DNA of 64,000 nucleotides from the human T2T-CHM13v2.0 reference genome, Homo sapiens: assembly GCA_009914755.4 (NCBI GenBank), contig CP068257.2, positions 8,192,001 through 8,256,000 of the forward strand, given 5' to 3'. This document shows, in pieces, positions 1-32,700 of this stretch; the first letter of the stretch is position 1; each line of letters opens with the position of its first letter. The notes under the pieces are model-generated. The model did no database searches. It worked only from the letters and a program-made list of their open reading frames with translations, and was not told the origin of the DNA. The translations under genes and the position numbers were made by a program.

Positions 1-52
1 GCTTCTGTCTAGTTTTTATGTGAATATATTTCCTTTTCCACTATAGGCCGTC
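1..52. repeat. 3' end of a preceding HOR copy (partial)
   Basis: Sequence 1-52 matches the last ~52 bp preceding the phase point in every other copy (e.g. 16657-16708). Confidence 0.8.
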
Positions 53-3000: not shown

Positions 3001-3966
3001 GCTGCTCAATCAAAAGAAAAGTTCAACTCTTTGAGATGAATGCACACATCATGAAGTTCCTCAGAATGCTTCTATTTTTATGTGAAGATATATCCTTTTC
3101 TACCATAGACCACAAAACTCTCCAAATATCCCCTTGCAGTTTCTACTAAAAGAGTGTTTCCAAACTGCTCAATCAAAAGAAAGTTTCAACTCTGTGAGAT
3201 GAATGCACACATCATTAAGAAGTTTCTCAGTAATTTTCTGTCTAGTTTTTATGTGAAGATATTTCCTTTCCTACTATAGGCCTGAAAGTGCTGCAAATAT
3301 CCGTTTGCAGATACTGCAAAAAGACTGTTTCCACACTGCTCAATCAAAGGAAATGTCCAACTCTGTGAGTTGAATGCACGCATCTCAAAGAGATTACTTA
3401 TAATGATTCTGTCTAGTTTTGATGTGAAGATATTTGCTTTTCCACCAGTGGCCTCAAACTCTCCAAATATCCACTTGCAGATTCTACAATAAGAGTGTTT
3501 CAAAACTGCTCAATCAAAAGAAAGGTTCAACACTGTGAGATGAATGCACACGTCACAAAGCACTTTCTTAGAATGCTTCTGTCTAGCTTTTATGTGAAGA
3601 TATTTCCTTTTTCACCATAGGCTGCAAAGCGCTCCAAATATCCCTTTCAGATTCTACAGAAAGAGTGTTTCAAAACTGTTCAATCAAAAGAGAAACTCAA
3701 CACTGGTGATGAATGCACGCATCACAAAGCAGTTTCTCATAATGTTTCTGTCTAGTTTTTATGTGAAGATATTTCATTCTCCACTATAGGCCGTAATGCA
3801 CTCCTAATATCCACTTGCAGATTCTACAAAAAGACTGTTTGCAAACTGCTCAAACAAAAGAAAAGTTCAACTCTGTGAGTTGAATGAGCACATCACAAAG
3901 AAGTTTCTCAGAATGCTTCTGTCTAGTTTTTATGTGAATATATTTCCTTTTCCACTATAGGCCGTC
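53..3966. repeat. HOR copy 1, 23-mer, 3914 bp, haplotype I
   Basis: Copy defined from the 'atgcgctccaaatatccac' phase point at 53 to the next at 3967. The variant set matches copies 5, 6 and 9 (e.g. '…caaaaatactcaatc…', 'ttctcttatgaag'). Confidence 0.85.
2588..2604. other. Example pJalpha-type motif (ttccttttccaccatag; consensus TTCCTTTTYCACCRTAG) occupying the monomer position where CENP-B boxes occur in B-box-containing alpha satellite
   Basis: Exact 17-bp match to the pJalpha consensus. Similar or identical motifs recur in about half of the monomers of each HOR copy. No CENP-B box (TCCCGYTTCCAACGAAR in this orientation) is found in the window. Confidence 0.6.
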
Positions 3967-6900
3967 ATGCGCTCCAAATATCCACTTGCAGATTCTACAA
4001 AAAGACTGATTCCAAACTGCTCAATCAAAAGAAAAGCTCAACTCTGTGAATTGAATGAGCACATCACAAAGAAGTTTCTCAGAATGCTTCTATCTCGTTT
4101 TTATGTGAATATATTTCCTTTTCCACCACAGGCCACAAACACTCCAAATATCCACTTGAAGATTCTACAAAAAGAGTGCTTCAAAAATGCTCAATCAAAA
4201 GAAAGGTTCAACTCTTTGAGATGGATGCACACATCACAAAGAAGCTTCTCAGAATGTTTCTGTCTAGTTTTTTTGTGAAGATATTTCCTTTTCCACCGTA
4301 GTCCTCAAGTCTCTCCAAATATCTACTTTCAGAATCTCCAAAAAGAGTGTTTTAAAACTGCTGTACCAAAGAAAGTTTCATGTCTGAGATATGACTGCAT
4401 ACAACACAGAGAAGTTTCTCAAAGTGCTTCTGTTTATTTTTTTTATGAAGATATTTCCTTTTCCACTATGGGCCACAGAGCGCTCCAAATATCGACTTGC
4501 AGATTCTACAAAAAGAGTGTTTCAAAACTGCTCAATCAATAGAAAGTTTGAAGTCTGTGAGATGAATGCACACATCACAAAGGAGTTTCTAAGAATGCTT
4601 CCATCTGAATTTTATGTGAGGATATTTCCTTTTTCACCATAGGCCTCAGTACACTCCAAATATCCATTTACAGATAATACAAATGACTGTATCCAAACTG
4701 CTCAATCAAAAGAAAGTTCAACTGTGTATGATGAAGGCACACATCACAAGGCTGTTTCTCAGAAAGATTTTGTCTAGTTTTTAGGTGAAGATATTTCTTA
4801 TTTCCCCAGAGGCCTCAATGGGCTCTCAAATATTCCCTTTCATATTCTACTAAATGACTGTATCGAAGCTGCTCAATCAAAAGACGGGTTTAACAGTGTG
4901 AGACGAAAATACACCTTCCTAGGAAGTTTCTCAGAATTCTTCTTTCTAGTTTTTTATGTGAAGATATTTCCTTTTCCACTATAGGCCTCAAAGCGTTCCA
5001 AATATCCACTTGCAGATACCACAAATAGAGCGTTTCAAAACTGCTCAATCAAAAGAAAGGTTCAACTCTGTGAGATGAATGCAGACATCAAAAAGAAGTT
5101 TCTCAGAATGCTTCCGCCTAGTTTTTATGTGAAGATATTTCCTTTTTAACCATAGGCCTCAAAGCACTGGTAATATCCATTTGCAGATACTACAAAAAGA
5201 CTGTTCCCAAACTGCTCAATAAAAAGAAAGTTTCAACTCTATGAGATAAAAGCAAATATCACAAAGAAGTTTCTCAGAAACTTTCTATCTAGTTTTTATG
5301 TGAACATATTTCTTATCACCCCATAGACCTCAATCGGCTCACAAGTATCCTTCTGCAGATTGTAAAAAACTACTGTTTCCAAACCGCTCAATCACAGGAA
5401 AGGTTTAACTCTGTGAAATGAATGCATCCATCACAGAGAAGTTTCTCAGAATGCTTCCGTCTCGTTTTCATGTGAAGAAGATTCCTTTTCCACCATATTC
5501 CTCATGCGCTCCAAATAAACACTTGCAGATTCCGCTAAAAGAGTGTTTCAAAACTGCTCAACCAAAAGAAAGGTTCTAGTCGGTGAGATGAATGCACACA
5601 TCACAAAGAAGTTTCTATGAATGCTTCTGTCTGATTTATATTGAAGATATTTCCTTTTTCACCGTAGGCCTCAGAGTGCTTAAAATATCCATTTGCAGAT
5701 ACTAGAAAAGACTGTTTCCAAACTGCTCAATCAAAATAAAGTTCAACTCAGTGAGATGAATGCACACATCACCAAGACGTTTCTGAGAAAGATTCTGTCC
5801 CGTTTTTATGTGAAGATATTTCCTGTTTCCCCAGAGGCATCAATGGGCTCACAAATATTCCTTTGCATATTCTACAAAATGACTGTTTAGAAGGTGCTCA
5901 ATCAAAAAAAAAGTTCAACAGTGTGAGATGAATGCGCCCATTCAAAGGAAGTGTCTCAGAATTCTTCTATCTAGTTTTTATGTGAAGATATTTCCTTTTT
6001 CATTATAGGCCACAAAGTGCTCCAAATATCCACTTGCAGACTCTACGAAACGAGTGTATCCACACTGCTCAAACAAAAGAAAATTTCAACTGTTTGAGAT
6101 GAATGCACACATCAAAATAAATTTCTCCAAAACTTCTGCCTACTTTTTATGGGAAGATATTTCGTTTTTCAACGTAGGCCAAAAGCACTCCAAATATCAA
6201 TTTGCAGATTCTACAAAAAGACTGTTTCCAAACTGCTCAATCAACAGAAAGTTTCAACCCGGTGAGTAGAAGTCACACATGACAAAATAGTTTCTCAGAA
6301 AGTATCTGTCTAGTTTTTACGTGAAGATATTTCCTATCACCCCAGAAGCCTCAATGGGCTCACAAATATTCCTTTGCAGATTCTACAAAAAGGCAGTTTC
6401 AAAACTGCTGAATCAAAAGAAAGGTTCAACTCTGGGAGATGAATGCACAGATCACAAATAAGTTCCTCAGAATGCTGCTGCCTAGTTTTAATGGGAAGAG
6501 ATTTCCTTTTCCACCATAGGCCTCAAAGCTCTCCAAATAGCCATTTGCAGATACTGTAAAAAGACTGTTTCCAAACTGCTGAATCAAAAGAAAGGTTGAA
6601 CTCCATGAGTTGAATGCACACGTCATAAAGAAGTTTCTCAGAATGGTTCTGACTAGTTTTTATGTGAAGATATTTTCTTTTCCACCATAGGCCTCAAAGC
6701 GCTGAAAATATCCACTTGAAGATTCTACAGAAAGAGAGTTTCAAAACTGCTCAAACAAAAGAAAGATTCAACTCTGTGAGATGAATGCACACATCACAAA
6801 GAAGTTTCTCAGAATGCTTCTGTCTAGTTTTATGTAAAGATATTTCCTTTTCTACTCTAGGCCACAAAGCACTCCAAATATCAACTTGCAGATTCTGCAG

Positions 6901-8213
6901 AAAGAGTTTTTCAAAGCTGCTCAATCAAAAGAAAAGTTCAACTCCTTGAGATGAATGCACACATCATGAAGTTCCTCAGAATGCTTCTATTTTTATGTGA
7001 AGACATATCCTTTTCTACCATAGACCACAAAACGCTCCAAATATCCCCTTGCAGTTTCTACTAAAATAGTGTTTCCAAACGGCTCAATCAAAAGAAAGTT
7101 TCAACTTTGTGAGATGAATGCACACATCACAAAGAAGTTTCTCAGAATGCTTCTGTCTAGTTTTATGTAAAGATATTTCCTTTTCTACTATAGGCCACAA
7201 AGCACTCCAAATATCAACTTGCAGATTCTGCAGAAAGAGTTTTTCAAAGCTGCTCAATCAAAAGAAAAGTTAAACTCTTTGAGATGAATGCACACATCAT
7301 GAAGTTCCTCAGAATGCTTCTATTTTTATGTGAAGATATATCCTTTTCTACCATAGACCACAAAACGCTCCAAATATCCCCTTGCAGTTTCTACTAAAAG
7401 AGTGTTTCCAAACGGCTCAATCAAAAGAAAGTTTCAACTCTGTGAGATGAATGCACACAACATTAAGTAGTGTCTCAGTAATTTTCTGTCTAGTTTTTAT
7501 GTGAAGATATTTCCTTTCCTACTATAGGCCTGAAAGTGCTGCAAATATCCGTTTGCAGATACTGCAAAAAGACTGTTTCCACACTGCTCAATCAAAGGAA
7601 ATGTCCAACTCTGTGAGTTGAATGCACGCATCTCAAAGAGATTACTTCTAATGATTCTGTCTAGTTTTGATGTGAAGATATTTGCTTTTCCACCAGTGGC
7701 CTCAAACTCTCCAAATATCCACTTGCAGATTCTACAATAAGAGTGTTTCAAAACTGCTCAATCAAAGAAAGGTTCAACACTGTGAGATGAATGCACACGT
7801 CACAAAGCACTTTCTTAGAATGCTTCTGTCTAGCTTTTATGTGAAGATATTTCCTTTTTCACCATAGGCTGCAAAGCGCTCCAAATATCCCTTTCAGATT
7901 CTACAGAAAGAGTATTTCAAAACTGTTCAATCAAAAGAGAAACTCAACTCTGGTGATGAATGCACGCATCACAAAGCAGTTTCTCATAATGTTTCTGTCT
8001 AGTTTTTATGTGAAGATATTTCATTCTCCACTATAGGCCGTAATGCACTCCTAATATCCACTTGCAGATTCTACAAAAAGACTGTTTGCAAACTGCTCAA
8101 ACAAAAGAAAAGTTCAACTCTGTGAGTTGAATGAGCACATCACAAAGAAGTTTCTCAGAATGCTTCTGTCTAGTTTTTATGTGAATATATTTCCTTTTCC
8201 ACTATAGGCCATC
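3967..8213. repeat. HOR copy 2, 25-mer, 4247 bp (dimer duplication), haplotype II' (shares variants with edge copies 13-16)
   Basis: Phase point to phase point is 4247 bp. It contains two tandem 333-bp dimer units (6778-7443). SNVs such as 'caaacactccaaat' and 'ctttgagatggatgcac' are shared with copies 13-16. Confidence 0.85.
6778..7443. repeat. Tandem duplication of 333-bp alpha-satellite dimer (units 6778-7110 and 7111-7443) defining the 25-mer HOR variant; same event at 11025-11690, 15272-15937, 19520-20185
   Basis: The 'gagatgaatgcacacatcacaaagaagtttctcagaatgcttctgtctagttttatgtaaag…' unit starts at 6778, 7111 and 7444. In 23-mer copies the corresponding interval (e.g. 2863-3195) has one unit only. 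The two units differ at about 5 positions. Confidence 0.85.
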
Positions 8214-11200
8214 ATGCGCTCCAAATATCCACTTGCAGATTCTACAAAAAGACTGTTTCCAAACTGCTCAATCAAAAGAAAAGCTCAACTCTGTGAGTTG
8301 AATGAGCACATCACAAAGAAGTTTCTCAGAATGCTTCTATCTAGTTTTTATGTGAATATATTTCCTTTTCCACCACAGGCCACAAACCCTCCAAATATCC
8401 ACTTGAAGATTCTACAAAAAGAGTGCTTCAAAAATGCTCAATCAAAAGAAAGGTTCAACTCTTCGAGATGGACGCACACATCACAAAGAAGCTTCTCAGA
8501 ATGTTTCTGTCTAGTTTTTTTGTGAAGATATTTCCTTTTCCACCGTAGTCCTCAAGTCTCTCCAAATATCTACTTTCAGAATCTCCAAAAAGAGTGTTTT
8601 AAAACTGCTGTACCAAAGAAAGTTTCATGTCTGAGATATGACTGCATACAACACAGAGAAGTTTCTCAAAGTGCTTCTGTTTATTTTTTTTATGAAGATA
8701 TTTCCTTTTCCACTATGGGCCACAGAGCGCTCCAAATATCGACTTGCAGATTCTACAAAAAGAGTGTTTCAAAACTGCTCAATCAATAGAAAGTTTGAAG
8801 TCTGTGAGATGAATGCACACATCACAAAGGAGTTTCTAAGAATGCTTCCATCTGAATTTTATGTGAGGATATTTCCTTTTTCACCATAGGCCTCAGTACA
8901 CTCCAAATATCCATTTACAGATAATACAAATGACTGTATCCAAACTGCTCAATCAAAAGAAAGTTCAACTGTGCATGATGAATGCACACATCACAAGGGT
9001 GTTTCTCAGAAAGATTTTGTCTTGTTTTTAGGTGAAGATATTTCTTATTTCCCCAGAGGCCTCAATGGGCTCTCAAATATTCCCTTTCATATTCTACTAA
9101 ATGACTGTATCGAAGCTGCTCAATCAAAAGACGGGTTTAACAGTGTGAGACGAAAATACACCTTCCTAGGAAGTTTCTCAGAATTCTTCTTTCTAGTTTT
9201 TTATGTGAAGATATTTCCTTTTCCACTATAGGCCTCAAAGCGTTCCAAATATCCACTTGCAGATACCACAAATAGAGCGTTTCAAAACTGCTCAATCAAA
9301 AGAAAGGTTCAACTCTGTGAGATGAATGCAGACATCAAAAAGAAGTTTCTCAGAATGCTTCCGCCTAGTTTTTATGTGAAGATATTTCCTTTTTAACCAT
9401 AGGCCTCAAAGCACTGGTAATATCCATTTGCAGATACTACAAAAAGACTGTTCCCAAACTGCTCAATAAAAAGAAAGTTTCAACTCTATGAGATAAAAGC
9501 AAATATCACAAAGAAGTTTCTCAGAAACTTTCTATCTAGTTTTTATGTGAACATATTTCTTATCACCCCATAGACCTCAATCGGCTCACAAGTATCCTTC
9601 TGCAGATTGTAAAAAACTACTGTTTCCAAACCGCTCAATCACAGGAAAGGTTTAACTCTGTGAAATGAATGCATCCATCACAGAGAAGTTTCTCAGAATG
9701 CTTCCGTCTCGTTTTCATGTGAAGAAGATTCCTTTTCCACCATATTCCTCATGCGCTCCAAATAAACACTTGCAGATTCCGCTAAAAGAGTGTTTCAAAA
9801 CTGCTCAACCAAAAGAAAGGTTCTAGTCGGTGAGATGAATGCACACATCACAAAGAAGTTTCTATGAATGCTTCTGTCTGATTTATATTGAAGATATTTC
9901 CTTTTTCACCGTAGGCCTCAGAGTGCTTAAAATATCCATTTGCAGATACTAGAAAAGACTGTTTCCAAACTGCTCAATCAAAATAAAGTTCAACTCAGTG
10001 AGATGAATGCACACATCACCAAGACGTTTCTGAGAAAGATTCTGTCCCGTTTTTATGTGAAGATATTTCCTGTTTCCCCAGAGGCATCAATGGGCTCACA
10101 AATATTCCTTTGCATATTCTACAAAATGACTGTTTAGAAGGTGCTCAATCAAAAAAAAAGTTCAACAGTGTGAGATGAATGCGCCCATTCAAAGGAAGTG
10201 TCTCAGAATTCTTCTATCTAGTTTTTATGTGAAGATATTTCCTTTTTCATTATAGGCCACAAAGTGCTCCAAATATCCACTTGCAGACTCTACGAAACGA
10301 GTGTATCCACACTGCTCAAACAAAAGAAAATTTCAACTGTTTGAGATGAATGCACACATCAAAATAAATTTCTCCAAAACTTCTGCCTACTTTTTATGGG
10401 AAGATATTTCGTTTTTCAACGTAGGCCAAAAGCACTCCAAATATCAATTTGCAGATTCTACAAAAAGACTGTTTCCAAACTGCTCAATCAACAGAAAGTT
10501 TCAACCCGGTGAGTAGAAGTCACACATGACAAAATAGTTTCTCAGAAAGTATCTGTCTAGTTTTTACGTGAAGATATTTCCTATCACCCCAGAAGCCTCA
10601 ATGGGCTCACAAATATTCCTTTGCAGATTCTACAAAAAGGCAGTTTCAAAACTGCTGAATCAAAAGAAAGGTTCAACTCTGGGAGATGAATGCACAGATC
10701 ACAAATAAGTTCCTCAGAATGCTGCTGCCTAGTTTTAATGGGAAGAGATTTCCTTTTCCACCATAGGCCTCAAAGCTCTCCAAATAGCCATTTGCAGATA
10801 CTGTAAAAAGACTGTTTCCAAACTGCTGAATCAAAAGAAAGGTTGAACTCCATGAGTTGAATGCACACGTCATAAAGAAGTTTCTCAGAATGGTTCTGAC
10901 TAGTTTTTATGTGAAGATATTTTCTTTTCCACCATAGGCCTCAAAGCGCTGAAAATATCCACTTGAAGATTCTACAGAAAGAGAGTTTCAAAACTGCTCA
11001 AACAAAAGAAAGATTCAACTCTGTGAGATGAATGCACACATCACAAAGAAGTTTCTCAGAATGCTTCTGTCTAGTTTTATGTAAAGATATTTCCTTTTCT
11101 ACTCTAGGCCACAAAGCACTCCAAATATCAACTTGCAGATTCTGCAGAAAGAGTTTTTCAAAGCTGCTCAATCAAAAGAAAAGTTCAACTCCTTGAGATG

Positions 11201-12460
11201 AATGCACACATCATGAAGTTCCTCAGAATGCTTCTATTTTTATGTGAAGACATATCCTTTTCTACCATAGACCACAAAACGCTCCAAATATCCCCTTGCA
11301 GTTTCTACTAAAATAGTGTTTCCAAACGGCTCAATCAAAAGAAAGTTTCAACTTTGTGAGATGAATGCACACATCACAAAGAAGTTTCTCAGAATGCTTC
11401 TGTCTAGTTTTATGTAAAGATATTTCCTTTTCTACTATAGGCCACAAAGCACTCCAAATATCAACTTGCAGATTCTGCAGAAAGAGTTTTTCAAAGCTGC
11501 TCAATCAAAAGAAAAGTTAAACTCTTTGAGATGAATGCACACATCATGAAGTTCCTCAGAATGCTTCTATTTTTATGTGAAGATATATCCTTTTCTACCA
11601 TAGACCACAAAACGCTCCAAATATCCCCTTGCAGTTTCTACTAAAAGAGTGTTTCCAAACGGCTCAATCAAAAGAAAGTTTCAACTCTGTGAGATGAATG
11701 CACACAACATTAAGTAGTGTCTCAGTAATTTTCTGTCTAGTTTTTATGTGAAGATATTTCCTTTCCTACTATAGGCCTGAAAGTGCTGCAAATATCCGTT
11801 TGCAGATACTGCAAAAAGACTGTTTCCACACTGCTCAATCAAAGGAAATGTCCAACTCTGTGAGTTGAATGCACGCATCTCAAAGAGATTACTTCTAATG
11901 ATTCTGTCTAGTTTTGATGTGAAGATATTTGCTTTTCCACCAGTGGCCTCAAACTCTCCAAATATCCACTTGCAGATTCTACAATAAGAGTGTTTCAAAA
12001 CTGCTCAATCAAAGAAAGGTTCAACACTGTGAGATGAATGCACACGTCACAAAGCACTTTCTTAGAATGCTTCTGTCTAGCTTTTATGTGAAGATATTTC
12101 CTTTTTCACCATAGGCTGCAAAGCGCTCCAAATATCCCTTTCAGATTCTACAGAAAGAGTATTTCAAAACTGTTCAATCAAAAGAGAAACTCAACTCTGG
12201 TGATGAATGCACGCATCACAAAGCAGTTTCTCATAATGTTTCTGTCTAGTTTTTATGTGAAGATATTTCATTCTCCACTATAGGCCGTAATGCACTCCTA
12301 ATATCCACTTGCAGATTCTACAAAAAGACTGTTTGCAAACTGCTCAAACAAAAGAAAAGTTCAACTCTGTGAGTTGAATGAGCACATCACAAAGAAGTTT
12401 CTCAGAATGCTTCTGTCTAGTTTTTATGTGAATATATTTCCTTTTCCACTATAGGCCATC
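8214..12460. repeat. HOR copy 3, 25-mer, 4247 bp, haplotype II
   Basis: 4247-bp period; essentially identical to copy 4. Confidence 0.85.
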
Positions 12461-15400
12461 ATGCGCTCCAAATATCCACTTGCAGATTCTACAAAAAGAC
12501 TGTTTCCAAACTGCTCAATCAAAAGAAAAGCTCAACTCTGTGAGTTGAATGAGCACATCACAAAGAAGTTTCTCAGAATGCTTCTATCTAGTTTTTATGT
12601 GAATATATTTCCTTTTCCACCACAGGCCACAAACCCTCCAAATATCCACTTGAAGATTCTACAAAAAGAGTGCTTCAAAAATGCTCAATCAAAAGAAAGG
12701 TTCAACTCTTCGAGATGGACGCACACATCACAAAGAAGCTTCTCAGAATGTTTCTGTCTAGTTTTTTTGTGAAGATATTTCCTTTTCCACCGTAGTCCTC
12801 AAGTCTCTCCAAATATCTACTTTCAGAATCTCCAAAAAGAGTGTTTTAAAACTGCTGTACCAAAGAAAGTTTCATGTCTGAGATATGACTGCATACAACA
12901 CAGAGAAGTTTCTCAAAGTGCTTCTGTTTATTTTTTTTATGAAGATATTTCCTTTTCCACTATGGGCCACAGAGCGCTCCAAATATCGACTTGCAGATTC
13001 TACAAAAAGAGTGTTTCAAAACTGCTCAATCAATAGAAAGTTTGAAGTCTGTGAGATGAATGCACACATCACAAAGGAGTTTCTAAGAATGCTTCCATCT
13101 GAATTTTATGTGAGGATATTTCCTTTTTCACCATAGGCCTCAGTACACTCCAAATATCCATTTACAGATAATACAAATGACTGTATCCAAACTGCTCAAT
13201 CAAAAGAAAGTTCAACTGTGCATGATGAATGCACACATCACAAGGGTGTTTCTCAGAAAGATTTTGTCTTGTTTTTAGGTGAAGATATTTCTTATTTCCC
13301 CAGAGGCCTCAATGGGCTCTCAAATATTCCCTTTCATATTCTACTAAATGACTGTATCGAAGCTGCTCAATCAAAAGACGGGTTTAACAGTGTGAGACGA
13401 AAATACACCTTCCTAGGAAGTTTCTCAGAATTCTTCTTTCTAGTTTTTTATGTGAAGATATTTCCTTTTCCACTATAGGCCTCAAAGCGTTCCAAATATC
13501 CAATTGCAGATACTACAAATAGAGCGTTTCAAAACTGCTCAATCAAAAGAAAGGTTCAACCCTGTGAGATGAATGCAGACATCAAAAAGAAGTTTCTCAG
13601 AATGTTTCCGCCTTGTTTTTATGTGAAGATATTTCCTTTTTCACCATAGGCCTCAAAGCACTGGTAATATCCATTTGCAGATACTACAAAAAGACTGTTC
13701 CCAAACTGCTCAATAAAAAGAAAGTTTCAACTCTAGGAGATAAAAGCAAATATCACAAAGAAGTTTCTCAGAAACTTTCTATCTAGTTTTTATGTGAACA
13801 TATTTCTTATCACCCCATAGACCTCAATCGGCTCACAAGTATCCTTCTGCAGATTGTAAAAAACTACTGTTTCCAAACCGCTCAATCACAGGAAAGTTTT
13901 AACTCTGTGAAATGAATGCATCCATCACAGAGAAGTTTCTCAGAATGCTTCCGTCTCGTTTTCATGTGAAGAAGATTCCTTTTCCACCATATTCCTCATG
14001 CGCTCCAAATAAACACTTGCAGATTCCGCTAAAAGAGTGTTTCAAAACTGCTCAATCAAAAGAAAGGTTCTAGTCGGTGAGATGAATGCACACATCACAA
14101 AGAAGTTTCTATGAATGCTTCTGTCTGGTTTATATTGAAGATATTTCCTTTTTCACCGTAGGCCTCAGAGTGCTTAAAATATCCATTTGCAGATACTAGA
14201 AAAGACTGTTTCCAAACTGCTCAATCAAAATAAAGTTCAACTCAGTGAGATGAATGCACACATCACCAAGACGTTTCTGAGAAAGATTCTGTCTCGTTTT
14301 TATGTGAAGATATTTCCTGTTTCCCCAGAGGCATCAATGGGCTCACAAATATTCCTTTGCATATTCTACAAAATGACTGTTTAGAAGGTGCTCAATCAAA
14401 AAAAAAGTTCAACAGTGTGAGATGAATGCGCCCACTCAAAGGAAGTTTCTCAGAATTCTTCTATCTAGTTTTCATGTGAAGATATTTCCTTTTTCACTAT
14501 AGGCCACAAAGTGCTCCAAATATCCACTTGCAGACTCTACGAAACGAGTGTATCCACACTGCTCAATCAAAAGAAAATTTCAACTGTGTGAGATGAATGC
14601 ACACATCAAAATAAATTTCTCCAAAACTTCTGCCTACTTTTTATGGGAAGATATTTCGTTTTTCAACGTAGGCCAAAAGCACTCCAAATATCAATTTGCA
14701 GATTCTACAAAAAGACTGTTTCCAAACTGCTCAATCAACAGAAAGTTTCAACCCGGTGAGTAGAAGACACACATGACAAAATAGTTTCTCAGAAAGTATC
14801 TGTCTAGTTTTTACGTGAAGATATTTCCTATCACCCCAGAAGCCTCAATGGGCTCACAAATATTCCTTTGCAGATTCTACAAAACGACAGTTTCAAAACT
14901 GCTGAATCAAAAGAAAGGTTCAACTCTGGGAGATGAATGCACAGATCACAAATAAGTTTCTCAGAATGCTGCTGCCTAGTTTTAATGGGAAGAGATTTCC
15001 TTTTCCACCATAGGCCTCAAAGCTCTCCAAATAGCCATTTGCAGATACTGTAAAAAGACTGTTTCCAAACTGCTGAATCAAAAGAAAGGTTGAACTCCAT
15101 GAGTTGAATGCACACGTCATAAAGAAGTTTCTCAGAATGCTTCTGACTAGTTTTTATGTGAAGATATTTTCTTTTCCACCATAGGCCTCAAAGCGCTGAA
15201 AATATCCACTTGAAGATTCTACAGAAAGAGAGTTTCAAAACTGCTCAAACAAAAGAAAGATTCAACTCTGTGAGATGAATGCACACATCACAAAGAAGTT
15301 TCTCAGAATGCTTCTGTCTAGTTTTATGTAAAGATATTTCCTTTTCTACTCTAGGCCACAAAGCACTCCAAATATCAACTTGCAGATTCTGCAGAAAGAG

Positions 15401-16708
15401 TTATTCAAAGCTGCTCAATCAAAAGAAAAGTTCAACTCCTTGAGACGAATGCACACATCATGAAGTTCCTCAGAATGCTTCTATTTTTATGTGAAGATAT
15501 ATCCTTTTCTACCATAGACCACAAAACGCTCCAAATATCCCCTTGCAGTTTCTACTAAAAGAGTGTTTCCAAAAGGCTCAATCAAAAGAAAGTTTCAAAT
15601 CTGTGAGATGAATGCACACATCACAAAGAAGTTTCTCAGAATGCTTCTGTCTAGTTTTATGTAAAGATATTTCCTTTTCTACTATAGGCCACAAAGCACT
15701 CCAAATATCAACTTGCAGATTCTGCAGAAAGAGTTTTTCAAAGCTGCTCAGTCAAAAGACAAGTTCAACTCTTTGAGATGAATGCACACATCATGAAGTT
15801 CCTCAGAATGCTTCTATTTTTATGTGAAGATATATCCTTTTCTACCATAGACCACAAAACGCTCCAAATATCCCCTTGCAGTTTCTACTAAAAGAGTGTT
15901 TCCAAACGGCTCAATCAAAAGAAAGTTTCAACTCTGTGAGATGAATGCACACATCATTAAGAAGTGTCTCAGTAATTTTCTGTCTAGTTTTTATGTGAAG
16001 ATATTTCCTTTCCTACTATAGGCCTGAAAGTGCTGCAAATATCCGTTTGCAGATACTGCAAAAAGACTGTTTCCACACTGCTCAATCAAAGGAAATGTCC
16101 AACTCTGTGAGTTGAATGCACGCATCTCAAAGAGATTACTTATAATGATTCTGTCTGGTTTTGATGTGAAGATATTTGCTTTTCCACCAGTGGCCTCAAA
16201 CTCTCCAAATATCCACTTGCAGATTCTACAATAAGAGTGTTTCAAAACTGCTCAATCAAAAGAAAGGTTCAACACTGTGAGATGAATGCACACGTCACAA
16301 AGCACTTTCTTAGAATGCTTCTGTCTAGCTTTTATGTGAAGATATTTCCTTTTTCACCATAGGCTGCAAAGCGCTCCAAATATCCCTTTCAGATTCTACA
16401 GAAAGAGTATTTCAAAACTGTTCAATCAAAAGAGAAACTCAACTCTGGTGATGAATGCACGCATCACAAAGCAGTTTCTCATAATGTTTCTGTCTAGTTT
16501 TTATGTGAAGATATTTCATTCTCCACTATAGGCCGTAATGCACTCCTAATATCCACTTGCAGATTCTACAAAAAGACTGTTTGCAAACTGCTCAAACAAA
16601 AGAAAAGTTCAACTCTGTGAGTTGAATGAGCACATCACAAAGAAGTTTCTCAGAATGCTTCTGTCTAGTTTTTATGTGAATATATTTCCTTTTCCACTAT
16701 AGGCCGTC
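12461..16708. repeat. HOR copy 4, 25-mer, 4248 bp, haplotype II
   Basis: 4248-bp period with the dimer duplication present. Confidence 0.85.
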
Positions 16709-19700
16709 ATGCGCTCCAAATATCCACTTGCAGATTCTACAAAAAGACTGTTTCCAAACTGCTCAATCAAAAGAAAAGCTCAACTCTGTGAGTTGAATGA
16801 GCACATCACAAAGAAGTTTCTCAGAATGCTTCTATCTAGTTTTTATGTGAATATATTTCCTTTTCCACCACAGGCCACAAACCCTCCAAATATCCACTTG
16901 AAGATTCTACAAAAAGAGTGCTTCAAAAATACTCAATCAAAAGAAAGGTTCAACTCTTCGAGATGGACGCACACATCACAAAGAAGCTTCTCAGAATGTT
17001 TCTGTCTAGTTTTTTTGTGAAGATATTTCCTTTTCCACTGAAGTCCTCAAGTCTCTCCAACTATCTACTTTCAGAATCTCCAAAAAGAGTGTTTTAAATC
17101 TGCTGTACCAAAGAAAGTTTCATGTCTGAGATATGACTGCATACAACACAGAGAACTTTCTCAAAGTGCTTCTGTTTATTTTTCTTATGAAGATATTTCC
17201 TTTTCCACTATGGGCCACAGAGCGCTCCAAATATCCACTGGCAGATTCTACAAAAAGAGTGTTTCAAAACTGCTCAATCAATAGAAAGTTTGAAGTCTGT
17301 GAGATGAATGTGCACATCACAAAGGAGTTTCTAAGAATGCTTCCATCTGAATTTTATGTGAGGATATTTCCTTTTTCACCATAGGCCTCAATACACTCCA
17401 AATATCCATTTACAGATAATACAAATGACTGTATCCAAACTGCTCAATCAAAAGAAAGTTCAACTGTGCATGATGAATGCACACATCACAAGGGTGTTTC
17501 TCAGAAAGATTTTGTCTTGTTTTTAGGTGAAGATATTTCTTATTTCCCCAGAGGCCTCAATGGGCTCTCAAATATTCCCTTTCATATTCTACTAAATGAC
17601 TGTATCGAAGCTGCTCAATCAAAAGACGGGTTTAACAGTGTGAGACGAAAATACACCTTCCTAGGAAGTTTCTCAGAATTCTTCTTTCTAGTTTTTTATG
17701 TGAAGATATTTCCTTTTCCACTATAGGCCTCAAAGCGTTCCAAATATCCACTTGCAGATACTACAAATAGAGCGTTTCAAAACTGCTCAATCAAAAGAAA
17801 GGTTCAACTCTGTGAGATGAATGCAGACATCAAAAAGAAGTTTCTCAGAATGCTTCCGCCTTGTTTTTATGTGAAGATATTTCCTTTTTCACCATAGGCC
17901 TCAAAGCACTGGTAATATCCATTTGTAGATACTACAAAAAGACTGTTCCCAAACTGCTCAATAAAAAGAAAGTTTCAACTCTATGAGATAAAAGCTAATA
18001 TCACAAAGAAGTTTCTCAGAAACTTTCTATCTAGTTTTTATGTGAACATATTTCTTATCACCCCATAGACCTCAATCGGCTCACAAGTATCCTTCTGCAG
18101 ATTGTAAAAAACTACTGTTTCCAAACCGCTCAATCACAGGAAAGTTTTAACTCTGTGAAATGAATGCATCCATCACAGAGAAGTTTCTCAGAATGCTTCC
18201 GTCTCGTTTTCATGTGAAGAAGATTCCTTTTCCACCATATTCCTCATGCGCTCCAAATAAACACTTGCAGATTCCGCTAAAAGAGTGTTTCAAAACTGCT
18301 CAATCAAAAGAAAGGTTCTAGTCGGTGAGATGAATGCACACATCACAAAGAAGTTTCTATGAATGCTTCTGTCTGGTTTATATTGAAGATATTTCCTTTT
18401 TCACCGTAGGCCTCAGAGTGCTTAAAATATCCATTTGCAGATACTAGAAAAGACTGTTTCCAAACTGCTCAATCAAAATAAAGTTCAACTCAGTGAGATG
18501 AATGCACACATCACCAAGACGTTTCTGAGAAAGATTCTGTCTCGTTTTTATGTGAAGATATTTCCTGTTTCCCCAGAGGCATCAATGGGCTCACAAATAT
18601 TCCTTTGCATATTCTACAAAATGACTGTTTAGAAGGTGCTCAATCAAAAAAAAAGTTCAACAGTGTGAGATGAATGCGCCCACTCAAAGGAAGTTTCTCA
18701 GAATTCTTCTATCTAGTTTTCATGTGAAGATATTTCCTTTTTCACTATAGGCCACAAAGTGCTCCAAATATCCACTTGCAGACTCTACGAAACGAGTGTA
18801 TCCACACTGCTCAATCAAAAGAAAATTTCAACTGTATGAGATGAATGCACACATCAAAATAAATTTCTCCAAAACTTCTGCCTACTTTTTATGGGAAGAT
18901 ATTTCGTTTTTCAACGTAGGCCAAAAGCACTCCAAATATCAATTTGCAGATTCTACAAAAAGACTGTTTCCAAACTGCTCAATCAACAGAAAGTTTCAAC
19001 CCGGTGAGTAGAAGACACACATGACAAAATAGTTTCTCAGAAAGTATCTGTCTAGTTTTTACGTGAAGATATTTCCTATCACCCCAGAAGCCTCAATGGG
19101 CTCACAAATATTCCTTTGCAGATTCTACAAAACGACAGTTTCAAAACTGCTGAATCAAAAGAAAGGTTCAACTCTGGGAGATGAATGCACAGATCACAAA
19201 TAAGTTTCTCAGAATGCTGCTGCCTAGTTTTAATGGGAAGAGATTTCCTTTTCCACCATAGGCCTCAAAGCTCTCCAAATAGCCATTTGCAGATACTGTA
19301 AAAAGACTGTTTCCAAACTGCTGAATCAAAAGAAAGGTTGAACTCCATGAGTTGAATGCACACGTCATAAAGAAGTTTCTCAGAATGCTTCTGACTAGTT
19401 TTTATGTGAAGATATTTTCTTTTCCACCATAGGCCTCAAAGCGCTGAAAATATCCACTTGAAGATTCTACAGAAAGAGAGTTTCAAAACTGCTCAAACAA
19501 AAGAAAGATTCAACTCTGTGAGATGAATGCACACATCACAAAGAAGTTTCTCAGAATGCTTCTGTCTAGTTTTATGTAAAGATATTTCCTTTTCTACTCT
19601 AGGCCACAAAGCACTCCAAATATCAACTTGCAGATTCTGCAGAAAGAGTTATTCAAAGCTGCTCAATCAAAAGAAAAGTTCAACTCCTTGAGACGAATGC

Positions 19701-20956
19701 ACACATCATGAAGTTCCTCAGAATGCTTCTATTTTTATGTGAAGATATATCCTTTTCTACCATAGACCACAAAACGCTCCAAATATCCCCTTGCAGTTTC
19801 TACTAAAAGAGTGTTTCCAAAAGGCTCAATCAAAAGAAAGTTTCAAATCTGTGAGATGAATGCACACATCACAAAGAAGTTTCTCAGAATGCTTCTGTCT
19901 AGTTTTATGTAAAGATATTTCCTTTTCTACTATAGGCCACAAAGCACTCCAAATATCAACTTGCAGATTCTGCAGAAAGAGTTTTTCAAAGCTGCTCAGT
20001 CAAAAGACAAGTTCAACTCTTTGAGATGAATGCACACATCATGAAGTTCCTCAGAATGCTTCTATTTTTATGTGAAGATATATCCTTTTCTACCATAGAC
20101 CACAAAACGCTCCAAATATCCCCTTGCAGTTTCTACTAAAAGAGTGTTTCCAAACGGCTCAATCAAAAGAAAGTTTCAACTCTGTGAGATGAATGCACAC
20201 ATCATTAAGAAGTGTCTCAGTAATTTTCTGTCTAGTTTTTATGTGAAGATATTTCCTTTCCTACTATAGGCCTGAAAGTGCTGCAAATATCCGTTTGCAG
20301 ATACTGCAAAAAGACTGTTTCCACACTGCTCAATCAAAGGAAATGTCCAACTCTGTGAGTTGAATGCACGCATCTCAAAGAGATTACTTATAATGATTCT
20401 GTCTGGTTTTGATGTGAAGATATTTGCTTTTCCACCAGTGGCCTCAAACTCTCCAAATATCCACTTGCAGATTCTACAATAAGAGTGTTTCAAAACTGCT
20501 CAATCAAAAGAAAGGTTCAACACTGTGAGATGAATGCACACGTCACAAAGCACTTTCTTAGAATGCTTCTGTCTAGCTTTTATGTGAAGATATTTCCTTT
20601 TTCACCATAGGCTGCAAAGCGCTCCAAATATCCCTTTCAGATTCTACAGAAAGAGTATTTCAAAACTGTTCAATCAAAAGAGAAACTCAACTCTGGTGAT
20701 GAATGCACGCATCACAAAGCAGTTTCTCATAATGTTTCTGTCTAGTTTTTATGTGAAGATATTTCATTCTCCACTATAGGCCGTAATGCACTCCTAATAT
20801 CCACTTGCAGATTCTACAAAAAGACTGTTTGCAAACTGCTCAAACAAAAGAAAAGTTCAACTCTGTGAGTTGAATGAGCACATCACAAAGAAGTTTCTCA
20901 GAATGCTTCTGTCTAGTTTTTATGTGAATATATTTCCTTTTCCACTATAGGCCGTC
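16709..20956. repeat. HOR copy 5, 25-mer, 4248 bp, haplotype I at 5' end
   Basis: 4248-bp period. The 5' monomers carry haplotype-I variants (KNTQ-type) but the copy includes the dimer duplication, so it is a mosaic. Confidence 0.85.
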
Positions 20957-23900
20957 ATGCGCTCCAAATATCCACTTGCAGATTCTACAAAAAGACTGTT
21001 TCCAAACTGCTCAATCAAAAGAAAAGCTCAACTCTGTGAGTTGAATGAGCACATCACAAAGAAGTTTCTCAGAATGCTTCTATCTAGTTTTTATGTGAAT
21101 ATATTTCCTTTTCCACCACAGGCCACAAACCCTCCAAATATCCACTTGAAGATTCTACAAAAAGAGTGCTTCAAAAATACTCAATCAAAAGAAAGGTTCA
21201 ACTCTTCGAGATGGACGCACACATCACAAAGAAGCTTCTCAGAATGTTTCTGTCTAGTTTTTTTGTGAAGATATTTCCTTTTCCACTGAAGTCCTCAAGT
21301 CTCTCCAACTATCTACTTTCAGAATCTCCAAAAAGAGTGTTTTAAATCTGCTGTACCAAAGAAAGTTTCATGTCTGAGATATGACTGCATACAACACAGA
21401 GAACTTTCTCAAAGTGCTTCTGTTTATTTTTCTTATGAAGATATTTCCTTTTCCACTATGGGCCACAGAGCGCTCCAAATATCCACTGGCAGATTCTACA
21501 AAAAGAGTGTTTCAAAACTGCTCAATCAATAGAAAGTTTGAAGTCTGTGAGATGAATGTGCACATCACAAAGGAGTTTCTAAGAATGCTTCCATCTGAAT
21601 TTTATGTGAGGATATTTCCTTTTTCACCATAGGCCTCAATACACTCCAAATATCCATTTACAGATAATACAAATGACTGTATCCAAACTGCTCAATCAAA
21701 AGAAAGTTCAACTGTGCATGATGAATGCACACATCACAAGGGTGTTTCTCAGAAAGATTTTGTCTTGTTTTTAGGTGAAGATATTTCTTATTTCCCCAGA
21801 GGCCTCAATGGGCTCTCAAATATTCCCTTTCATATTCTACTAAATGACTGTATCGAAGCTGCTCAATCAAAAGACGGGTTTAACAGTGTGAGACGAAAAT
21901 ACACCTTCCTAGGAAGTTTCTCAGAATTCTTCTTTCTAGTTTTTTATGTGAAGATATTTCCTTTTCCACTATAGGCCTCAAAGCGTTCCAAATATCCACT
22001 TGCAGATACTACAAATAGAGCGTTTCAAAACTGCTCAATCAAAAGAAAGGTTCAACTCTGTGAGATGAATGCAGACATCAAAAAGAAGTTTCTCAGAATG
22101 CTTCCGCCTTGTTTTTATGTGAAGATATTTCCTTTTTCACCATAGGCCTCAAAGCACTGGTAATATCCATTTGTAGATACTACAAAAAGACTGTTCCCAA
22201 ACTGCTCAATAAAAAGAAAGTTTCAACTCTATGAGATAAAAGCTAATATCACAAAGAAGTTTCTCAGAAACTTTCTATCTAGTTTTTATGTGAACATATT
22301 TCTTATCACCCCATAGACCTCAATCGGCTCACAAGTATCCTTCTGCAGATTGTAAAAAACTACTGTTTCCAAACCGCTCAATCACAGGAAAGGTTTAACT
22401 CTGTGAAATGAATGCATCCATCACAGAGAAGTTTCTCAGAATGCTTCCGTCTCGTTTTCATGTGAAGAAGATTCCTTTTCCACCATATTCCTCATGCGCT
22501 CCAAATAAACACTTGCAGATTCCGCTAAAAGAGTGTTTCAAAACTGCTCAACCAAAAGAAAGGTTCTAGTCGGTGAGATGAATGCACACATCACAAAGAA
22601 GTTTCTATGAATGCTTCTGTCTGATTTATATTGAAGATATTTCCTTTTTAACCGTAGGCCTCAGAGTGCTTAAAATATCCATTTGCAGATACTAGAAAAG
22701 ACTGTTTCCAAACTGCTCAATCAAAATAAAGTTCAACTCAGTGAGATGAATGCACACATCACCAAGACGTTTCTGAGAAAGATTCTGTCTCGTTTTTATG
22801 TGAAGATATTTCCTGTTTCTCCAGAGGCATCAATGGGCTCACAAACATTCCTTTGCTATTCTACAAAATGACTGTTTAGAAGGTGCTCAATCAAAAAAAA
22901 AGTTCAACAGTGTGAGATGAATGCGCCCATTCAAAGGAAGTTTCTCAGAATTCTTCTATCTAGTTTTTATGTGAAGATATTTCCTTTTTCACTATAGGCC
23001 ACAAAGTGCTCCAAATATCCACTTGCAGACTCTACAAAACGAGTGTATCCACACTGCTCAATCAAAAGAAAATTTCAACTGTGTGAGATGAATGCACACA
23101 TCAAAATAAATTTCTCCAAAACTTCTGCCTACTTTTTATGGGAAGATATTTCGTTTTTCAACGTAGGCCAAAAGCACTCCAAATATCAATTTGCAGATTC
23201 TACAAAAAGACTGTTTCCAAACTGCTCAATCAACAGAAAGTTTCAACCCGGTGAGTAGAAGTCACACATGACAAAATAGTTTCTCAGAAAGTATCTGTCT
23301 AGTTTTTATGTGAAGATATTTCCTATCACCCCAGAAGCCTCAATGGGCTCACAAATATTCCTTTGCAGATTCTACAAAACGACAGTTTCAAAACTGCTGA
23401 ATCAAAAGAAAGGTTCAACTCTGTGAGATGAATGCACAGATCACAAATAAGTTTCTCAGAATGCTGCTGTCTAGTTTTTATGGGAAGAGATTTCCTTTTC
23501 CACCATAGGCCTCAAAGCTCTCCAAATAGCCATTTGCAGATACTGTAAAAAGACTGTTTCCAAACTGCTGAATCAAAAGAAAGGTTGAACTCCATGAGTT
23601 GAATGCACACGTCACAAAGAAGTTTCTCAGAATGCTTCTGACTAGTTTTTATGTGAAGATATTTTCTTTTCCACCATAGGCCTCAAAGCGCTGAAAATAT
23701 CCACTTGAAGATTCTACAGAAAGAGAGTTTCAAAACTGCTCAAACAAAAGAAAGATTCAACTCTGTGAGATGAATGCACACATCACAAAGAAGTTTCTCA
23801 GAATGCTTCTGTCTAGTTTTATGTAAAGATATTTCCTTTTCTACTATAGGCCACAAAGCATTCCAAATATCAACTTGCAGATTCTGCAGAAAGAGTTTTT

Positions 23901-24870
23901 CAAAGCTGCTCAATCAAAAGAAAAGTTCAACTCTTTGAGATGAATGCACACATCATGAAGTTCCTCAGAATGCTTCTATTTTTATGTGAAGATATATCCT
24001 TTTCTACCATAGACCACAAAACTCTCCAAATATCCCCTTGCAGTTTCTACTAAAAGAGTGTTTCCAAACTGCTCAATCAAAAGAAAGTTTCAACTCTGTG
24101 AGATGAATGCACACATCATTAAGAAGTTTCTCAGTAATTTTCTGTCTAGTTTTTATGTGAAGATATTTCCTTTCCTACTATAGGCCTGAAAGTGCTGCAA
24201 ATATCCGTTTGCAGATACTGCAAAAAGACTGTTTCCACACTGCTCAATCAAAGGAAATGTCCAACTCTGTGAGTTGAATGCACGCATCTCAAAGAGATTA
24301 CTTATAATGATTCTGTCTAGTTTTGATGTGAAGATATTTGCTTTTCCACCAGTGGCCTCAAACTCTCCAAATATCCACTTGCAGATTCTACAATAAGAGT
24401 GTTTCAAAACTGCTCAATCAAAAGAAAGGTTCAACACTGTGAGATGAATGCACACGTCACAAAGCACTTTCTTAGAATGCTTCTGTCTAGCTTTTATGTG
24501 AAGATATTTCCTTTTTCACCATAGGCTGCAAAGCGCTCCAAATATCCCTTTCAGATTCTACAGAAAGAGTGTTTCAAAACTGTTCAATCAAAAGAGAAAC
24601 TCAACACTGGTGATGAATGCATGCATCACAAAGCAGTTTCTCATAATGTTTCTGTCTAGTTTTTATGTGAAGATATTTCATTCTCCACTATAGGCCGTAA
24701 TGCACTCCTAATATCCACTTGCAGATTCTACAAAAAGACTGTTTGCAAACTGCTCAAACAAAAGAAAAGTTCAACTCTGTGAGTTGAATGAGCACATCAC
24801 AAAGAAGTTTCTCAGAATGCTTCTGTCTAGTTTTTATGTGAATATATTTCCTTTTCCACTATAGGCCGTC
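20957..24870. repeat. HOR copy 6, 23-mer, 3914 bp, haplotype I (near-identical to copy 1)
   Basis: 3914-bp period. Every spurious ORF (A, B, C, D, E, G) is identical to its counterpart in copy 1. Confidence 0.85.
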
Positions 24871-31700: not shown

Positions 31701-32700
31701 CAACTTGCAGATTCTGCAGAAAGAGTTTTTCAAAGCTGCTCAGTCAAAAGACAAGTTCAACTCTTTGAGATGAATGCACACATCATGAAGTTCCTCAGAA
31801 TGCTTCTATTTTTATGTGAAGATATATCCTTTTCTACCATAGACCACAAAACGCTCCAAATATCCCCTTGCAGTTTCTACTAAAAGAGTGTTTCCAAACG
31901 GCTCAATCAAAAGAAAGTTTCAACTCTGTGAGATGAATGCACACATCATTAAGAAGTGTCTCAGTAATTTTCTGTCTAGTTTTTATGTGAAGATATTTCC
32001 TTTCCTACTATAGGCCTGAAAGTGCTGCAAATATCCGTTTGCAGATACTGCAAAAAGACTGTTTCCACACTGCTCAATCAAAGGAAATGTCCAACTCTGT
32101 GAGTTGAATGCACGCATCTCAAAGAGATTACTTATAATGATTCTGTCTGGTTTTGATGTGAAGATATTTGCTTTTCCACCAGTGGCCTCAAACTCTCCAA
32201 ATATCCACTTGCAGATTCTACAATAAGAGTGTTTCAAAACTGCTCAATCAAAAGAAAGGTTCAACACTGTGAGATGAATGCACACGTCACAAAGCACTTT
32301 CTTAGAATGCTTCTGTCTAGCTTTTATGTGAAGATATTTCCTTTTTCACCATAGGCTGCAAAGCGCTCCAAATATCCCTTTCAGATTCTACAGAAAGAGT
32401 ATTTCAAAACTGTTCAATCAAAAGAGAAACTCAACTCTGGTGATGAATGCACGCATCACAAAGCAGTTTCTCATAATGTTTCTGTCTAGTTTTTATGTGA
32501 AGATATTTCATTCTCCACTATAGGCCGTAATGCACTCCTAATATCCACTTGCAGATTCTACAAAAAGACTGTTTGCAAACTGCTCAAACAAAAGAAAAGT
32601 TCAACTCTGTGAGTTGAATGAGCACATCACAAAGAAGTTTCTCAGAATGCTTCTGTCTAGTTTTTATGTGAATATATTTCCTTTTCCACTATAGGCCGTC
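28786..32700. repeat. HOR copy 8, 23-mer, 3915 bp, haplotype III
   Basis: Near-identical to copy 7, with a private 'aagaaatgttcaac' variant at ~29875. Confidence 0.85.

What the first reader, a model, noticed from the sequence alone, without database searches (positions are those of the whole stretch)
3967..20956. Block of four consecutive 25-mer HOR variants created by a 333-bp dimer tandem duplication
Copies 2-5 each carry two tandem 333-bp dimer units, where the 23-mer copies have one. The duplicated units differ at about 5 sites (~1.5%), so the duplication is older than the latest homogenisation. The variant sits as a contiguous 17-kb block flanked by 23-mers, which is the pattern expected when a structural variant HOR spreads locally by unequal crossover. 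Copy 5 combines the duplication with haplotype-I SNVs at its 5' end, so variant type and SNV haplotype have been shuffled.
Basis: seen in the sequence. Interest (0 to 1): 0.5.

Follow-up and report, generated by a model that had tools for sequence, protein, structure and literature searches.

The report
Known 25-monomer variant of chr21 alpha satellite
The four longer repeat copies are real and were made by ordinary misaligned recombination inside a non-centromeric alpha-satellite array on the short arm of human chromosome 21, and this exact arrangement has already been published.

Summary
The window is primate alpha satellite, 377 head-to-tail monomers. Each 25-mer carries monomers R (163 bp) and S (170 bp) twice in tandem, which is 333 bp.

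The locus is the "23/25mer HOR array" of T2T-CHM13 chr21, described by Gluncic et al. 2025 (PMC12385485). All 23 published consensus monomers, the copy order and three published coordinates match.

- The first S of each RSRS is an S/Q hybrid monomer. The switch lies in the longest S/Q identity tract (30 bp), which marks an in-register homologous exchange offset by two monomers.
- Copy 3 is an exact chimera of copies 4 and 2. Copy 5 is a chimera of copies 6 and 4 with one mismatch. Two one-unit unequal exchanges therefore grew the block from two copies to four.
- The second of these exchanges also explains the "shuffled" 5' end of copy 5.
- The two dimer units differ at 6-8 sites in the crossover phase and 13 in monomer phase.

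This is ordinary, already-known satellite dynamics, so interest is low.

The parts
1..3914 (+). c1, a canonical 23-mer HOR copy (monomers A-W). It differs from c6 at only 4 sites.
3915..8161 (+). c2, a 25-mer (A..Q R S/Q R S T..W) of lineage 1
8162..12408 (+). c3, a 25-mer. It is an exact chimera of c4[1..x] + c2[x+1..end], with x between 862 and 1094.
   Evidence: perfect 4479-bp tract 4777-9255 = 9024-13502
12409..16656 (+). c4, a 25-mer of lineage 2
16657..20904 (+). c5, a 25-mer. It is a chimera of c6[1..x] + c4[x+1..end], with x between 1340 and 1488 and 1 mismatch.
   Evidence: perfect 3556-bp tract 14589-18144 = 18837-22392
6979..7148 (+). S/Q hybrid monomer of c2: S body with a Q-type 3' tail (CATCACAAAGAAGTTTCTCAGAAT). 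This is the duplication junction. The same hybrid lies at 11226-11395, 15473-15642 and 19721-19890.
7100..7129 (+). 30-bp S/Q identity tract (TTCAACTCTGTGAGATGAATGCACACATCA in the consensus; c2 and c3 carry one later T). The S x Q exchange must have resolved inside it. Coordinates are derived from S positions 122-151.
20905..48304 (+). c6-c12, seven 23-mers with mosaic SNV haplotypes. c8 (28734-32648) is c7-like up to about position 57 of R, then identical to c4/c5 from the second R onward.
48305..53923 (+). c13, a 33-mer variant with a duplication of monomers G-P. The second G (51035-51205) is a Q/G hybrid.
57837..60907 (+). c15, an 18-mer variant lacking B and R-S-T-U. It has an A/B hybrid at 57837-58007 and a Q/U hybrid at 60397-60567.
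61419..64000 (+). Array edge: divergent alpha-satellite monomers, 18-30 differences from any HOR class
   Evidence: the published array end maps to window 61,419

Best explanation
The window is the non-centromeric '23/25mer' alpha-satellite higher-order-repeat array on the short arm of human chromosome 21. By coordinate matching it is T2T-CHM13 chr21:8,192,167-8,256,166.

Origin of the 25-mer. It arose once, by an in-register homologous exchange between misaligned copies offset by two monomers. Monomer S of one copy paired with monomer Q of another, and the exchange resolved inside their longest shared identity tract (30 bp). This left Q R [S/Q hybrid] R S T, a 333-bp tandem duplication.

Divergence. 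The variant then split into two lineages about 1% apart, partly through exchanges with neighbouring 23-mers.

Recent growth. Two recent exchanges, each offset by exactly one HOR unit, each added one copy. A c4 x c2 exchange produced c3. A c6 x c4 exchange produced c5, which is why c5 has a 23-mer-type 5' end. Together they grew the block from two copies to four.

What is shown: the structure, the hybrid junction, the chimeric copies, the shared core haplotype and the identity of the locus.

What is inferred: that the molecular process is unequal sister-chromatid or homologue crossover rather than a replication-based out-of-register repair. Both leave the same sequence.
For: Monomer decomposition and copy coordinates.

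Junction: the first S of every RSRS has a Q-type tail, while every other S has the S-type tail. The junction motif occurs 4 times, in the 25-mers only. The switch interval equals the longest S/Q identity tract, 30 bp against 17 bp for the next longest.

Single origin: six SNVs are fixed in c2-c5 and absent from all other copies. All six lie in monomers M-P, within 770 bp upstream of the duplication.

Recent growth: c3 and c5 are exact or 1-mismatch chimeras of their neighbours. Perfect tracts are longer than, or nearly as long as, one period.

Same mechanism elsewhere in the window: the 33-mer and the 18-mer also have hybrid monomers at their junctions.

Locus identity: all 23 published consensus monomers map one-to-one and in order onto classes H..W, A..G. 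The published copy order and variant deletions match (against 7, 8). Published starts 8,233,839, 8,237,753 and 8,243,372 and the array end 8,253,585 are reproduced exactly, or within 1 bp, from one anchor.

General knowledge: all HORs have whole-monomer structural variants, often with hybrid monomers (PMC9549924 section 2.5.2; PMC9248890).
Against: - No reads were available, so the assembly of the 8.7-kb perfect tandem (4777-13502) could not be checked here.
- Sequence alone cannot separate crossover from break-induced replication or template switching.
- The A x B junction of the 18-mer does not fall in one of the longest A/B identity tracts, so homology length does not explain every junction.
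- No independent human sample carrying the S/Q junction was found in the collections searched. The control shows those collections hold almost none of this array.
Confidence: 0.88

Rival explanations
1. The same junctions and chimeras were produced by replication-coupled repair rather than reciprocal unequal crossover. Candidates are out-of-register break-induced replication or template switching at a collapsed fork.
For: The sequence signature is identical: an in-register hybrid monomer inside an identity tract, and neighbour chimeras. A BIR-based model for centromeric repeat evolution exists in the literature (bioRxiv 10.1101/731430, listed; not read).
Against: Nothing in the window discriminates between the two. 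Reciprocal products cannot be observed in a single haplotype.
Confidence: 0.3
2. Assembly artefact: the 25-mer block is expanded or collapsed, or the 333-bp insertion is a misjoin.
For: 4777-13502 is a perfect 2.05-copy tandem, the kind of region where copy number is hardest to assemble.
Against: The two 25-mer lineages differ at 37-48 sites, and c2 and c3 differ at 11, so most copies are individually tagged. The insertion has a clean in-register hybrid junction and its own private SNVs. An array with the same 3915-bp unit and similar size (74.9 kb, 20 copies of which only 11 are complete 23-mers) is present in the separate hg38 assembly of chr21. I did not compare the hg38 sequence.
Confidence: 0.03
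3. The RS duplication arose independently in several copies, or was pasted into pre-existing 23-mers by gene conversion, without any change in copy number.
For: Gene conversion is active here. The 23-mer c8 carries a 2.1-kb tract identical to c4/c5 from the second R onward.
Against: All four copies have the same switch interval and share six private flanking SNVs. c3 and c5 are end-to-end chimeras of their two neighbours. That needs one unequal exchange each, but two exactly abutting conversion tracts each.
Confidence: 0.05

Closest known systems
23/25mer 'mixed Willard's/Cascading' HOR array of T2T-CHM13 chromosome 21 (Gluncic, Vlahovic, Rosandic, Paar 2025, Genes 16:885, PMC12385485)
   Same: It is the same locus. 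The monomer types match (their t1-t23 are my H..W, A..G). The duplicated pair t11,t12 is my R,S. The copy order matches (…23, 4x25, 6x23, then five variants lacking t10-t22, t18, and t11-t14 plus t20-t23). The coordinates match.
   Different: The paper gives the monomer-type scheme only. In the text I searched it does not describe the S/Q hybrid junction, the chimeric origin of individual copies, the core SNV haplotype or the hybrid junctions of the other variants.
Structural variants (StVs) of alpha-satellite HORs with hybrid monomers (Miga & Alexandrov 2021, PMC9549924; HORmon, PMC9248890)
   Same: Whole-monomer insertions and deletions relative to the primary HOR. A hybrid monomer of conserved ~171-bp length sits at the junction. 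Variants cluster locally.
   Different: Those surveys concentrate on live centromeric arrays. This array is a small one (73 kb) on the short arm with no CENP-B boxes.
Variant repeat units of D17Z1 formed by homologous unequal crossing-over, with non-random breakpoints within the monomer (Waye & Willard 1986; Warburton & Willard 1992; Warburton, Waye & Willard 1993). Cited from my own knowledge; the first two appear in the reference list seen.
   Same: In-register exchange between different monomers of one HOR changes the monomer count. Breakpoints fall in a restricted, conserved part of the monomer.
   Different: Different chromosome, suprachromosomal family and array state. Only four junctions are available here, too few to test for non-randomness.
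pTRA-1 / D21Z3 3.9-kb alpha-satellite subfamily of acrocentric chromosomes
   Same: A 3.9-kb, 23-monomer unit on chromosome 21. The 2019 paper assigns one of the two hg38 chr21 23-mer arrays to D21Z3.
   Different: The paper does not say which of the two arrays is D21Z3, and I had no pTRA-1 sequence to compare. The link is unproven.

Membership tests
Primate alpha-satellite higher-order repeat array | Head-to-tail ~171-bp monomers | tested here: met
   377 contiguous monomers of 163-172 bp, all on one strand
Primate alpha-satellite higher-order repeat array | Monomers within a unit are diverged while whole units are nearly identical | tested here: met
   Class consensuses differ by 12-55 of ~171 positions. 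23-mer copies c1 and c6-c12 differ by a mean of 44 of 3915 positions, 1.1%.
T2T-CHM13 chr21 23/25mer HOR array (PMC12385485) | The 23 monomer types match the published consensus t1-t23 in order | tested here: met
   Each t-monomer has a unique best class (score 150-167; runner-up no more than 137). The order is H..W, A..G.
T2T-CHM13 chr21 23/25mer HOR array (PMC12385485) | Published order of copies and of variant copies | tested here: met
   The window string is 23, 4x25, then 23-mers, then variants. In the paper's phase the variants lack t10-t22, t18, and t11-t14 plus t20-t23 (against 18).
T2T-CHM13 chr21 23/25mer HOR array (PMC12385485) | Published coordinates of copy starts and of the array end | tested here: met
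   One anchor reproduces 8,233,839 and 8,243,372 exactly and the array end within 1 bp.
HOR structural variant made by in-register unequal homologous exchange | The insertion or deletion is a whole number of monomers | tested here: met
   +2 monomers (R 163 bp + S 170 bp = 333 bp)
HOR structural variant made by in-register unequal homologous exchange | A hybrid monomer of normal length at the junction, with the switch inside a tract shared by the two parent monomers | tested here: met
   The S/Q hybrid is 170 bp. The switch lies in the 30-bp tract that is the longest S/Q identity.
HOR structural variant made by in-register unequal homologous exchange | A reciprocal deletion product, or copy-number polymorphism between haplotypes | not testable with these tools
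   Only one haplotype is available. Scans of the public collections found no other copy of the junction.
Live (kinetochore-forming) centromeric HOR array | CENP-B boxes in a subset of monomers (typical of most live autosomal arrays) | tested here: not met
   0 matches to the minimal box NTTCGNNNNANNCGGGN on either strand
Live (kinetochore-forming) centromeric HOR array | CENP-A occupancy, or position at the primary constriction | not testable with these tools
   The paper places the major 11-mer array at 10.96-11.30 Mb, about 2.7 Mb from this array. No chromatin data were available here.

The most novel reading that the evidence does not exclude
The monomer-level rearrangements in this CENP-B-box-free, non-centromeric array are not placed at random. 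Monomer Q is a partner in three of the four events (S x Q, Q x U, Q x G). Three of the four switch points fall in the same conserved ~40-bp segment near the 3' end of the monomer in this strand and phase. This could mark a sequence-determined exchange hotspot that does not depend on CENP-B, going beyond the trivial effect that exchanges resolve where identity tracts are longest.
Probability: 0.12. Interest if true: 0.4.

Novelty: already known. Interest (0 to 1): 0.15.

Why it matters
It matters little beyond bookkeeping. The locus and its 23/25-mer pattern are published, and structural-variant HORs spreading by unequal exchange are textbook satellite biology.

The added value is a clean worked example at base-pair resolution. 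It shows one founding two-monomer-offset exchange with its hybrid junction in the longest available identity tract. It then shows two datable one-unit exchanges whose products are exact chimeras of their neighbours.

Such small, fully resolved short-arm arrays could serve as tractable markers for measuring exchange rates on acrocentric short arms across human pangenome assemblies.

Tried and rejected
1. Independent support for the S/Q junction. I scanned metagenome contigs and genome contigs with a 63-nt junction motif and found nothing. A control scan with a 31-nt S-specific motif found only two metagenome contigs, L001 and L002, and no genome contigs. Each contig holds a single HOR copy (R..Q) followed by divergent monomers. 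L002 begins with a Nextera adapter right at the informative position. The negative result is therefore uninformative.
2. Standard HOR name and suprachromosomal family. The SF1 atlas (PMC6447721) does not mention this HOR. Ziccardi et al. 2016 is not held. The pTRA-1/D21Z3 link remains a lead only.
3. Dating the duplication from the differences between the two units. I rejected this because the units descend from different parental positions or copies, and four of the 13 monomer-phase differences are the Q-derived tail. Converting the ~1% lineage divergence into years with a genome-wide mutation rate gives implausibly old dates. Much of that divergence is likely imported by exchange.
4. Recurrent origin of the duplication. 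Rejected on the shared junction and the core haplotype.
Full report
**What the sequence is.** Tandem Repeats Finder reports a single array with period 171/341 bp across the whole window. GC content is a flat 36-37%. A search with the 171-bp consensus cuts the window into 377 contiguous monomers, all on one strand and in the reverse orientation relative to the usual alpha-satellite consensus. Distances between repeated 24-mers peak at 3915 bp and 4247/4248 bp. Minor peaks lie at 1706, 3743, 5619 and 3071 bp. [quoted passage not shown]

**Checking the observation.**
- All-against-all edit distances between monomers are bimodal: at most about 9 within a class and at least 18 between classes.
- Clustering gives 23 classes, A-W, and an unambiguous monomer string:

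| Copy | Type | Window coordinates |
|---|---|---|
| c1 | 23-mer | 1-3914 |
| c2 | 25-mer, A..Q RS RS T..W | 3915-8161 |
| c3 | 25-mer | 8162-12408 |
| c4 | 25-mer | 12409-16656 |
| c5 | 25-mer | 16657-20904 |
| c6-c12 | 23-mers | 20905-48304 |
| c13 | 33-mer (G-P duplicated) | 48305-53923 |
| c14 | 23-mer | 53924-57836 |
| c15 | 18-mer (B and RSTU missing) | 57837-60907 |
| edge | A B C, then 15 divergent monomers | 60908-63971 |

- R is 163 bp and S is 170 bp, so the extra unit is 333 bp.
- The tandem arrangement, its restriction to copies 2-5 and the flanking 23-mers are all confirmed.

**Differences between the two units.**
- In monomer phase the two RS units of one copy differ at 13 positions.
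- Sliding the comparison phase shows a minimum of 6 (c2, c3) or 8 (c4, c5) when the unit starts 20-49 bp upstream of R.

**The duplication junction.**
- Aligning the first S of each RSRS with the S and Q consensuses shows an S body joined to a Q-type 3' tail. The tail reads CATCACAAAGAAGTTTCTCAGAAT, where S normally has CATCATTAAGAAGTTTCTCAGTAA.
- The monomer is thus an S/Q hybrid of normal length. The structure is Q R [S/Q] R S T. This is the product expected when S of one copy pairs in register with Q of another, an offset of two monomers, and an exchange resolves between them.
- The switch must lie in TTCAACTCTGTGAGATGAATGCACACATCA. This is the longest uninterrupted identity between S and Q, 30 bp against 17 bp for the next longest.
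- Four of the 13 monomer-phase differences are simply this Q-derived tail.
- A 63-nt motif spanning the S-specific body and the Q-specific tail occurs four times in the window, once per 25-mer, with none expected by chance.

**Single origin and later history.**
- Six SNVs are fixed in all four 25-mers and absent from every other copy. All six lie in monomers M-P, within 770 bp upstream of the duplication. Two further sites downstream are shared only with c8. Together with the common junction, this core haplotype argues for one founding event.
- The four copies form two lineages. c2 and c3 differ at 11 sites, all in the first 862 bp. c3 and c4 differ at 37 sites, all after position 1094. c4 and c5 differ at 20 sites, 19 of them before position 1341.
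- c3 equals c4[1..x]+c2[x+1..end] with zero mismatches for any x from 862 to 1094. c5 equals c6[1..x]+c4[x+1..end] with one mismatch for x from 1340 to 1488.
- Correspondingly, 4777-9255 is identical to 9024-13502 (4479 bp, more than one period). 14589-18144 is identical to 18837-22392 (3556 bp).
- Each of c3 and c5 is therefore the new copy made by one exchange offset by exactly one HOR unit. The block grew from two diverged 25-mers (c2 and c4, 48 differences, 1.1%) to four.
It is the direct result of the c6 x c4 exchange, not an extra shuffling step.
- Exchange with 23-mers is also visible in c8. It is c7-like up to about position 57 of R, then identical to c4/c5 from their second R onward, a 2101-bp tract.

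**The same mechanism elsewhere in the window.** The other variants carry hybrid monomers too.
- In the 33-mer, the second G has a Q-type head, from a Q x G exchange offset by ten monomers.
- In the 18-mer, Q has a U-type tail, from a Q x U exchange that deleted RSTU.
- In the 18-mer, A has a B-type tail, from an A x B exchange that deleted B.
- The Q x U interval contains the longest Q/U identity tract. The Q x G interval is a 19-bp tract, the third longest. The A x B junction is not in a top tract.

**Identity of the locus.**
- A literature search found Gluncic et al. 2025 (PMC12385485). It describes a "23/25mer HOR array" at T2T-CHM13 chr21:8,180,952-8,253,585. The order is 23mer, 2 x 25mer, 23mer, 4 x 25mer, 6 x 23mer, followed by five variants lacking t10-t22, t18, and t11-t14 plus t20-t23. 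The 25-mers carry duplicated monomers t11 and t12.
- The consensus monomers t1-t23 from their supplement map one-to-one and in order onto my classes H..W, A..G. This makes t11,t12 = R,S.
- In their phase, my c12-c16 reproduce their five variants exactly.
- Anchoring monomer H of c12 to their 8,237,753 reproduces their 8,233,839 and 8,243,372 exactly, and the array end at window 61,419.
- The window is therefore chr21:8,192,167-8,256,166 of T2T-CHM13.
- Two further 25-mers lie just upstream, outside the window, separated from this block only by c1.
- An array with the same 3915-bp unit is also in hg38: 20 copies, of which 11 are complete 23-mers, 74.9 kb.
- In the text I searched, the 2025 paper does not discuss the hybrid junction or the chimeric copies.

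**Function and state.** The array has no CENP-B boxes and is strongly CpG-depleted, with an observed/expected ratio of 0.29. It lies about 2.7 Mb from the major 11-mer array of chr21. It is most likely an inactive short-arm array. Chromatin data would be needed to show this.

**Comparison with what is known.** Whole-monomer structural variants with hybrid monomers are stated to be present in all HORs (PMC9549924 section 2.5.2; PMC9248890). Their origin by homologous unequal crossing-over goes back to work on D17Z1 (my own knowledge; references seen). Nothing here departs from that picture. Sequence alone cannot separate reciprocal crossover from out-of-register break-induced replication.

**Dead ends.**
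- Scans of the metagenome and prokaryotic-genome collections for the junction found nothing.
- A control motif found only two uninformative contigs.
- The standard HOR name and suprachromosomal family could not be established.

1. The age argument from unit-to-unit differences is weak, although its conclusion holds on other evidence.
2. The mosaic 5' end of copy 5 comes from the same exchange that created copy 5.
3. More 25-mers lie upstream of the window.

The feature is already published for this very locus and is an ordinary example of satellite turnover, so interest is low.

Noticed in passing
window 48305-53923 (second G at 51035-51205): A 33-mer variant made by duplication of monomers G-P. 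The second G has a Q-type 5' head, so it is a Q/G hybrid from an exchange offset by ten monomers. A perfect 1529-bp tract at offset 1706 links 49341-50869 to 51047-52575.
   Followed up: partly
window 57837-60907: An 18-mer variant lacking B and R-S-T-U. Its A has a B-type tail and its Q has a U-type tail, so both deletions also have hybrid junctions.
   Followed up: partly
window 61419-64000: The HOR array ends after A B C. It is followed by 15 divergent monomers, 18-30 differences from any class. This coincides with the published array end.
   Followed up: partly
window 1-3914 vs 20905-24818, and upstream of the window: c1 and c6 differ at only 4 sites. The 12,410 bp that the paper places before monomer H of c1 (23+25+25) equals len(c4+c5+c6) exactly. 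This hints that a [25,25,23] super-unit was copied as a block. It cannot be tested inside the window.
   Followed up: no
window 28734-32648 (c8): This 23-mer is a recombinant. It is c7-like up to about position 57 of R, then identical to 25-mers c4/c5 from their second R onward (2101-bp tract 31692-33792 = 15700-17800 = 19948-22048). It is either a parent of the 25-mer 3' half or a 25-to-23 exchange product.
   Followed up: partly
whole HOR unit: Monomers F, I, L and O are each other's closest relatives (27-29 differences between F-L, L-O and I-O), suggesting an old three-monomer sub-period in E-P. A and W differ by only 12, suggesting an old adjacent duplication. Q is unusually close to G (18) and U (21), and it takes part in three of the four rearrangements.
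   Followed up: no
whole window: No CENP-B box on either strand. CpG observed/expected is 0.29.
   Followed up: partly
L001 1-13317; L002 1-6945 (metagenome contigs OJLY01000833.1, OWJD01000894.1): Human alpha satellite in metagenome assemblies. Each contig has one copy of this HOR (R..Q, 96-100% to the class consensuses) followed by divergent monomers. That edge (Q then divergent) differs from the edge in the window, so the contigs probably come from a paralogous 23-mer array. L002 starts with a Nextera adapter.
   Followed up: partly
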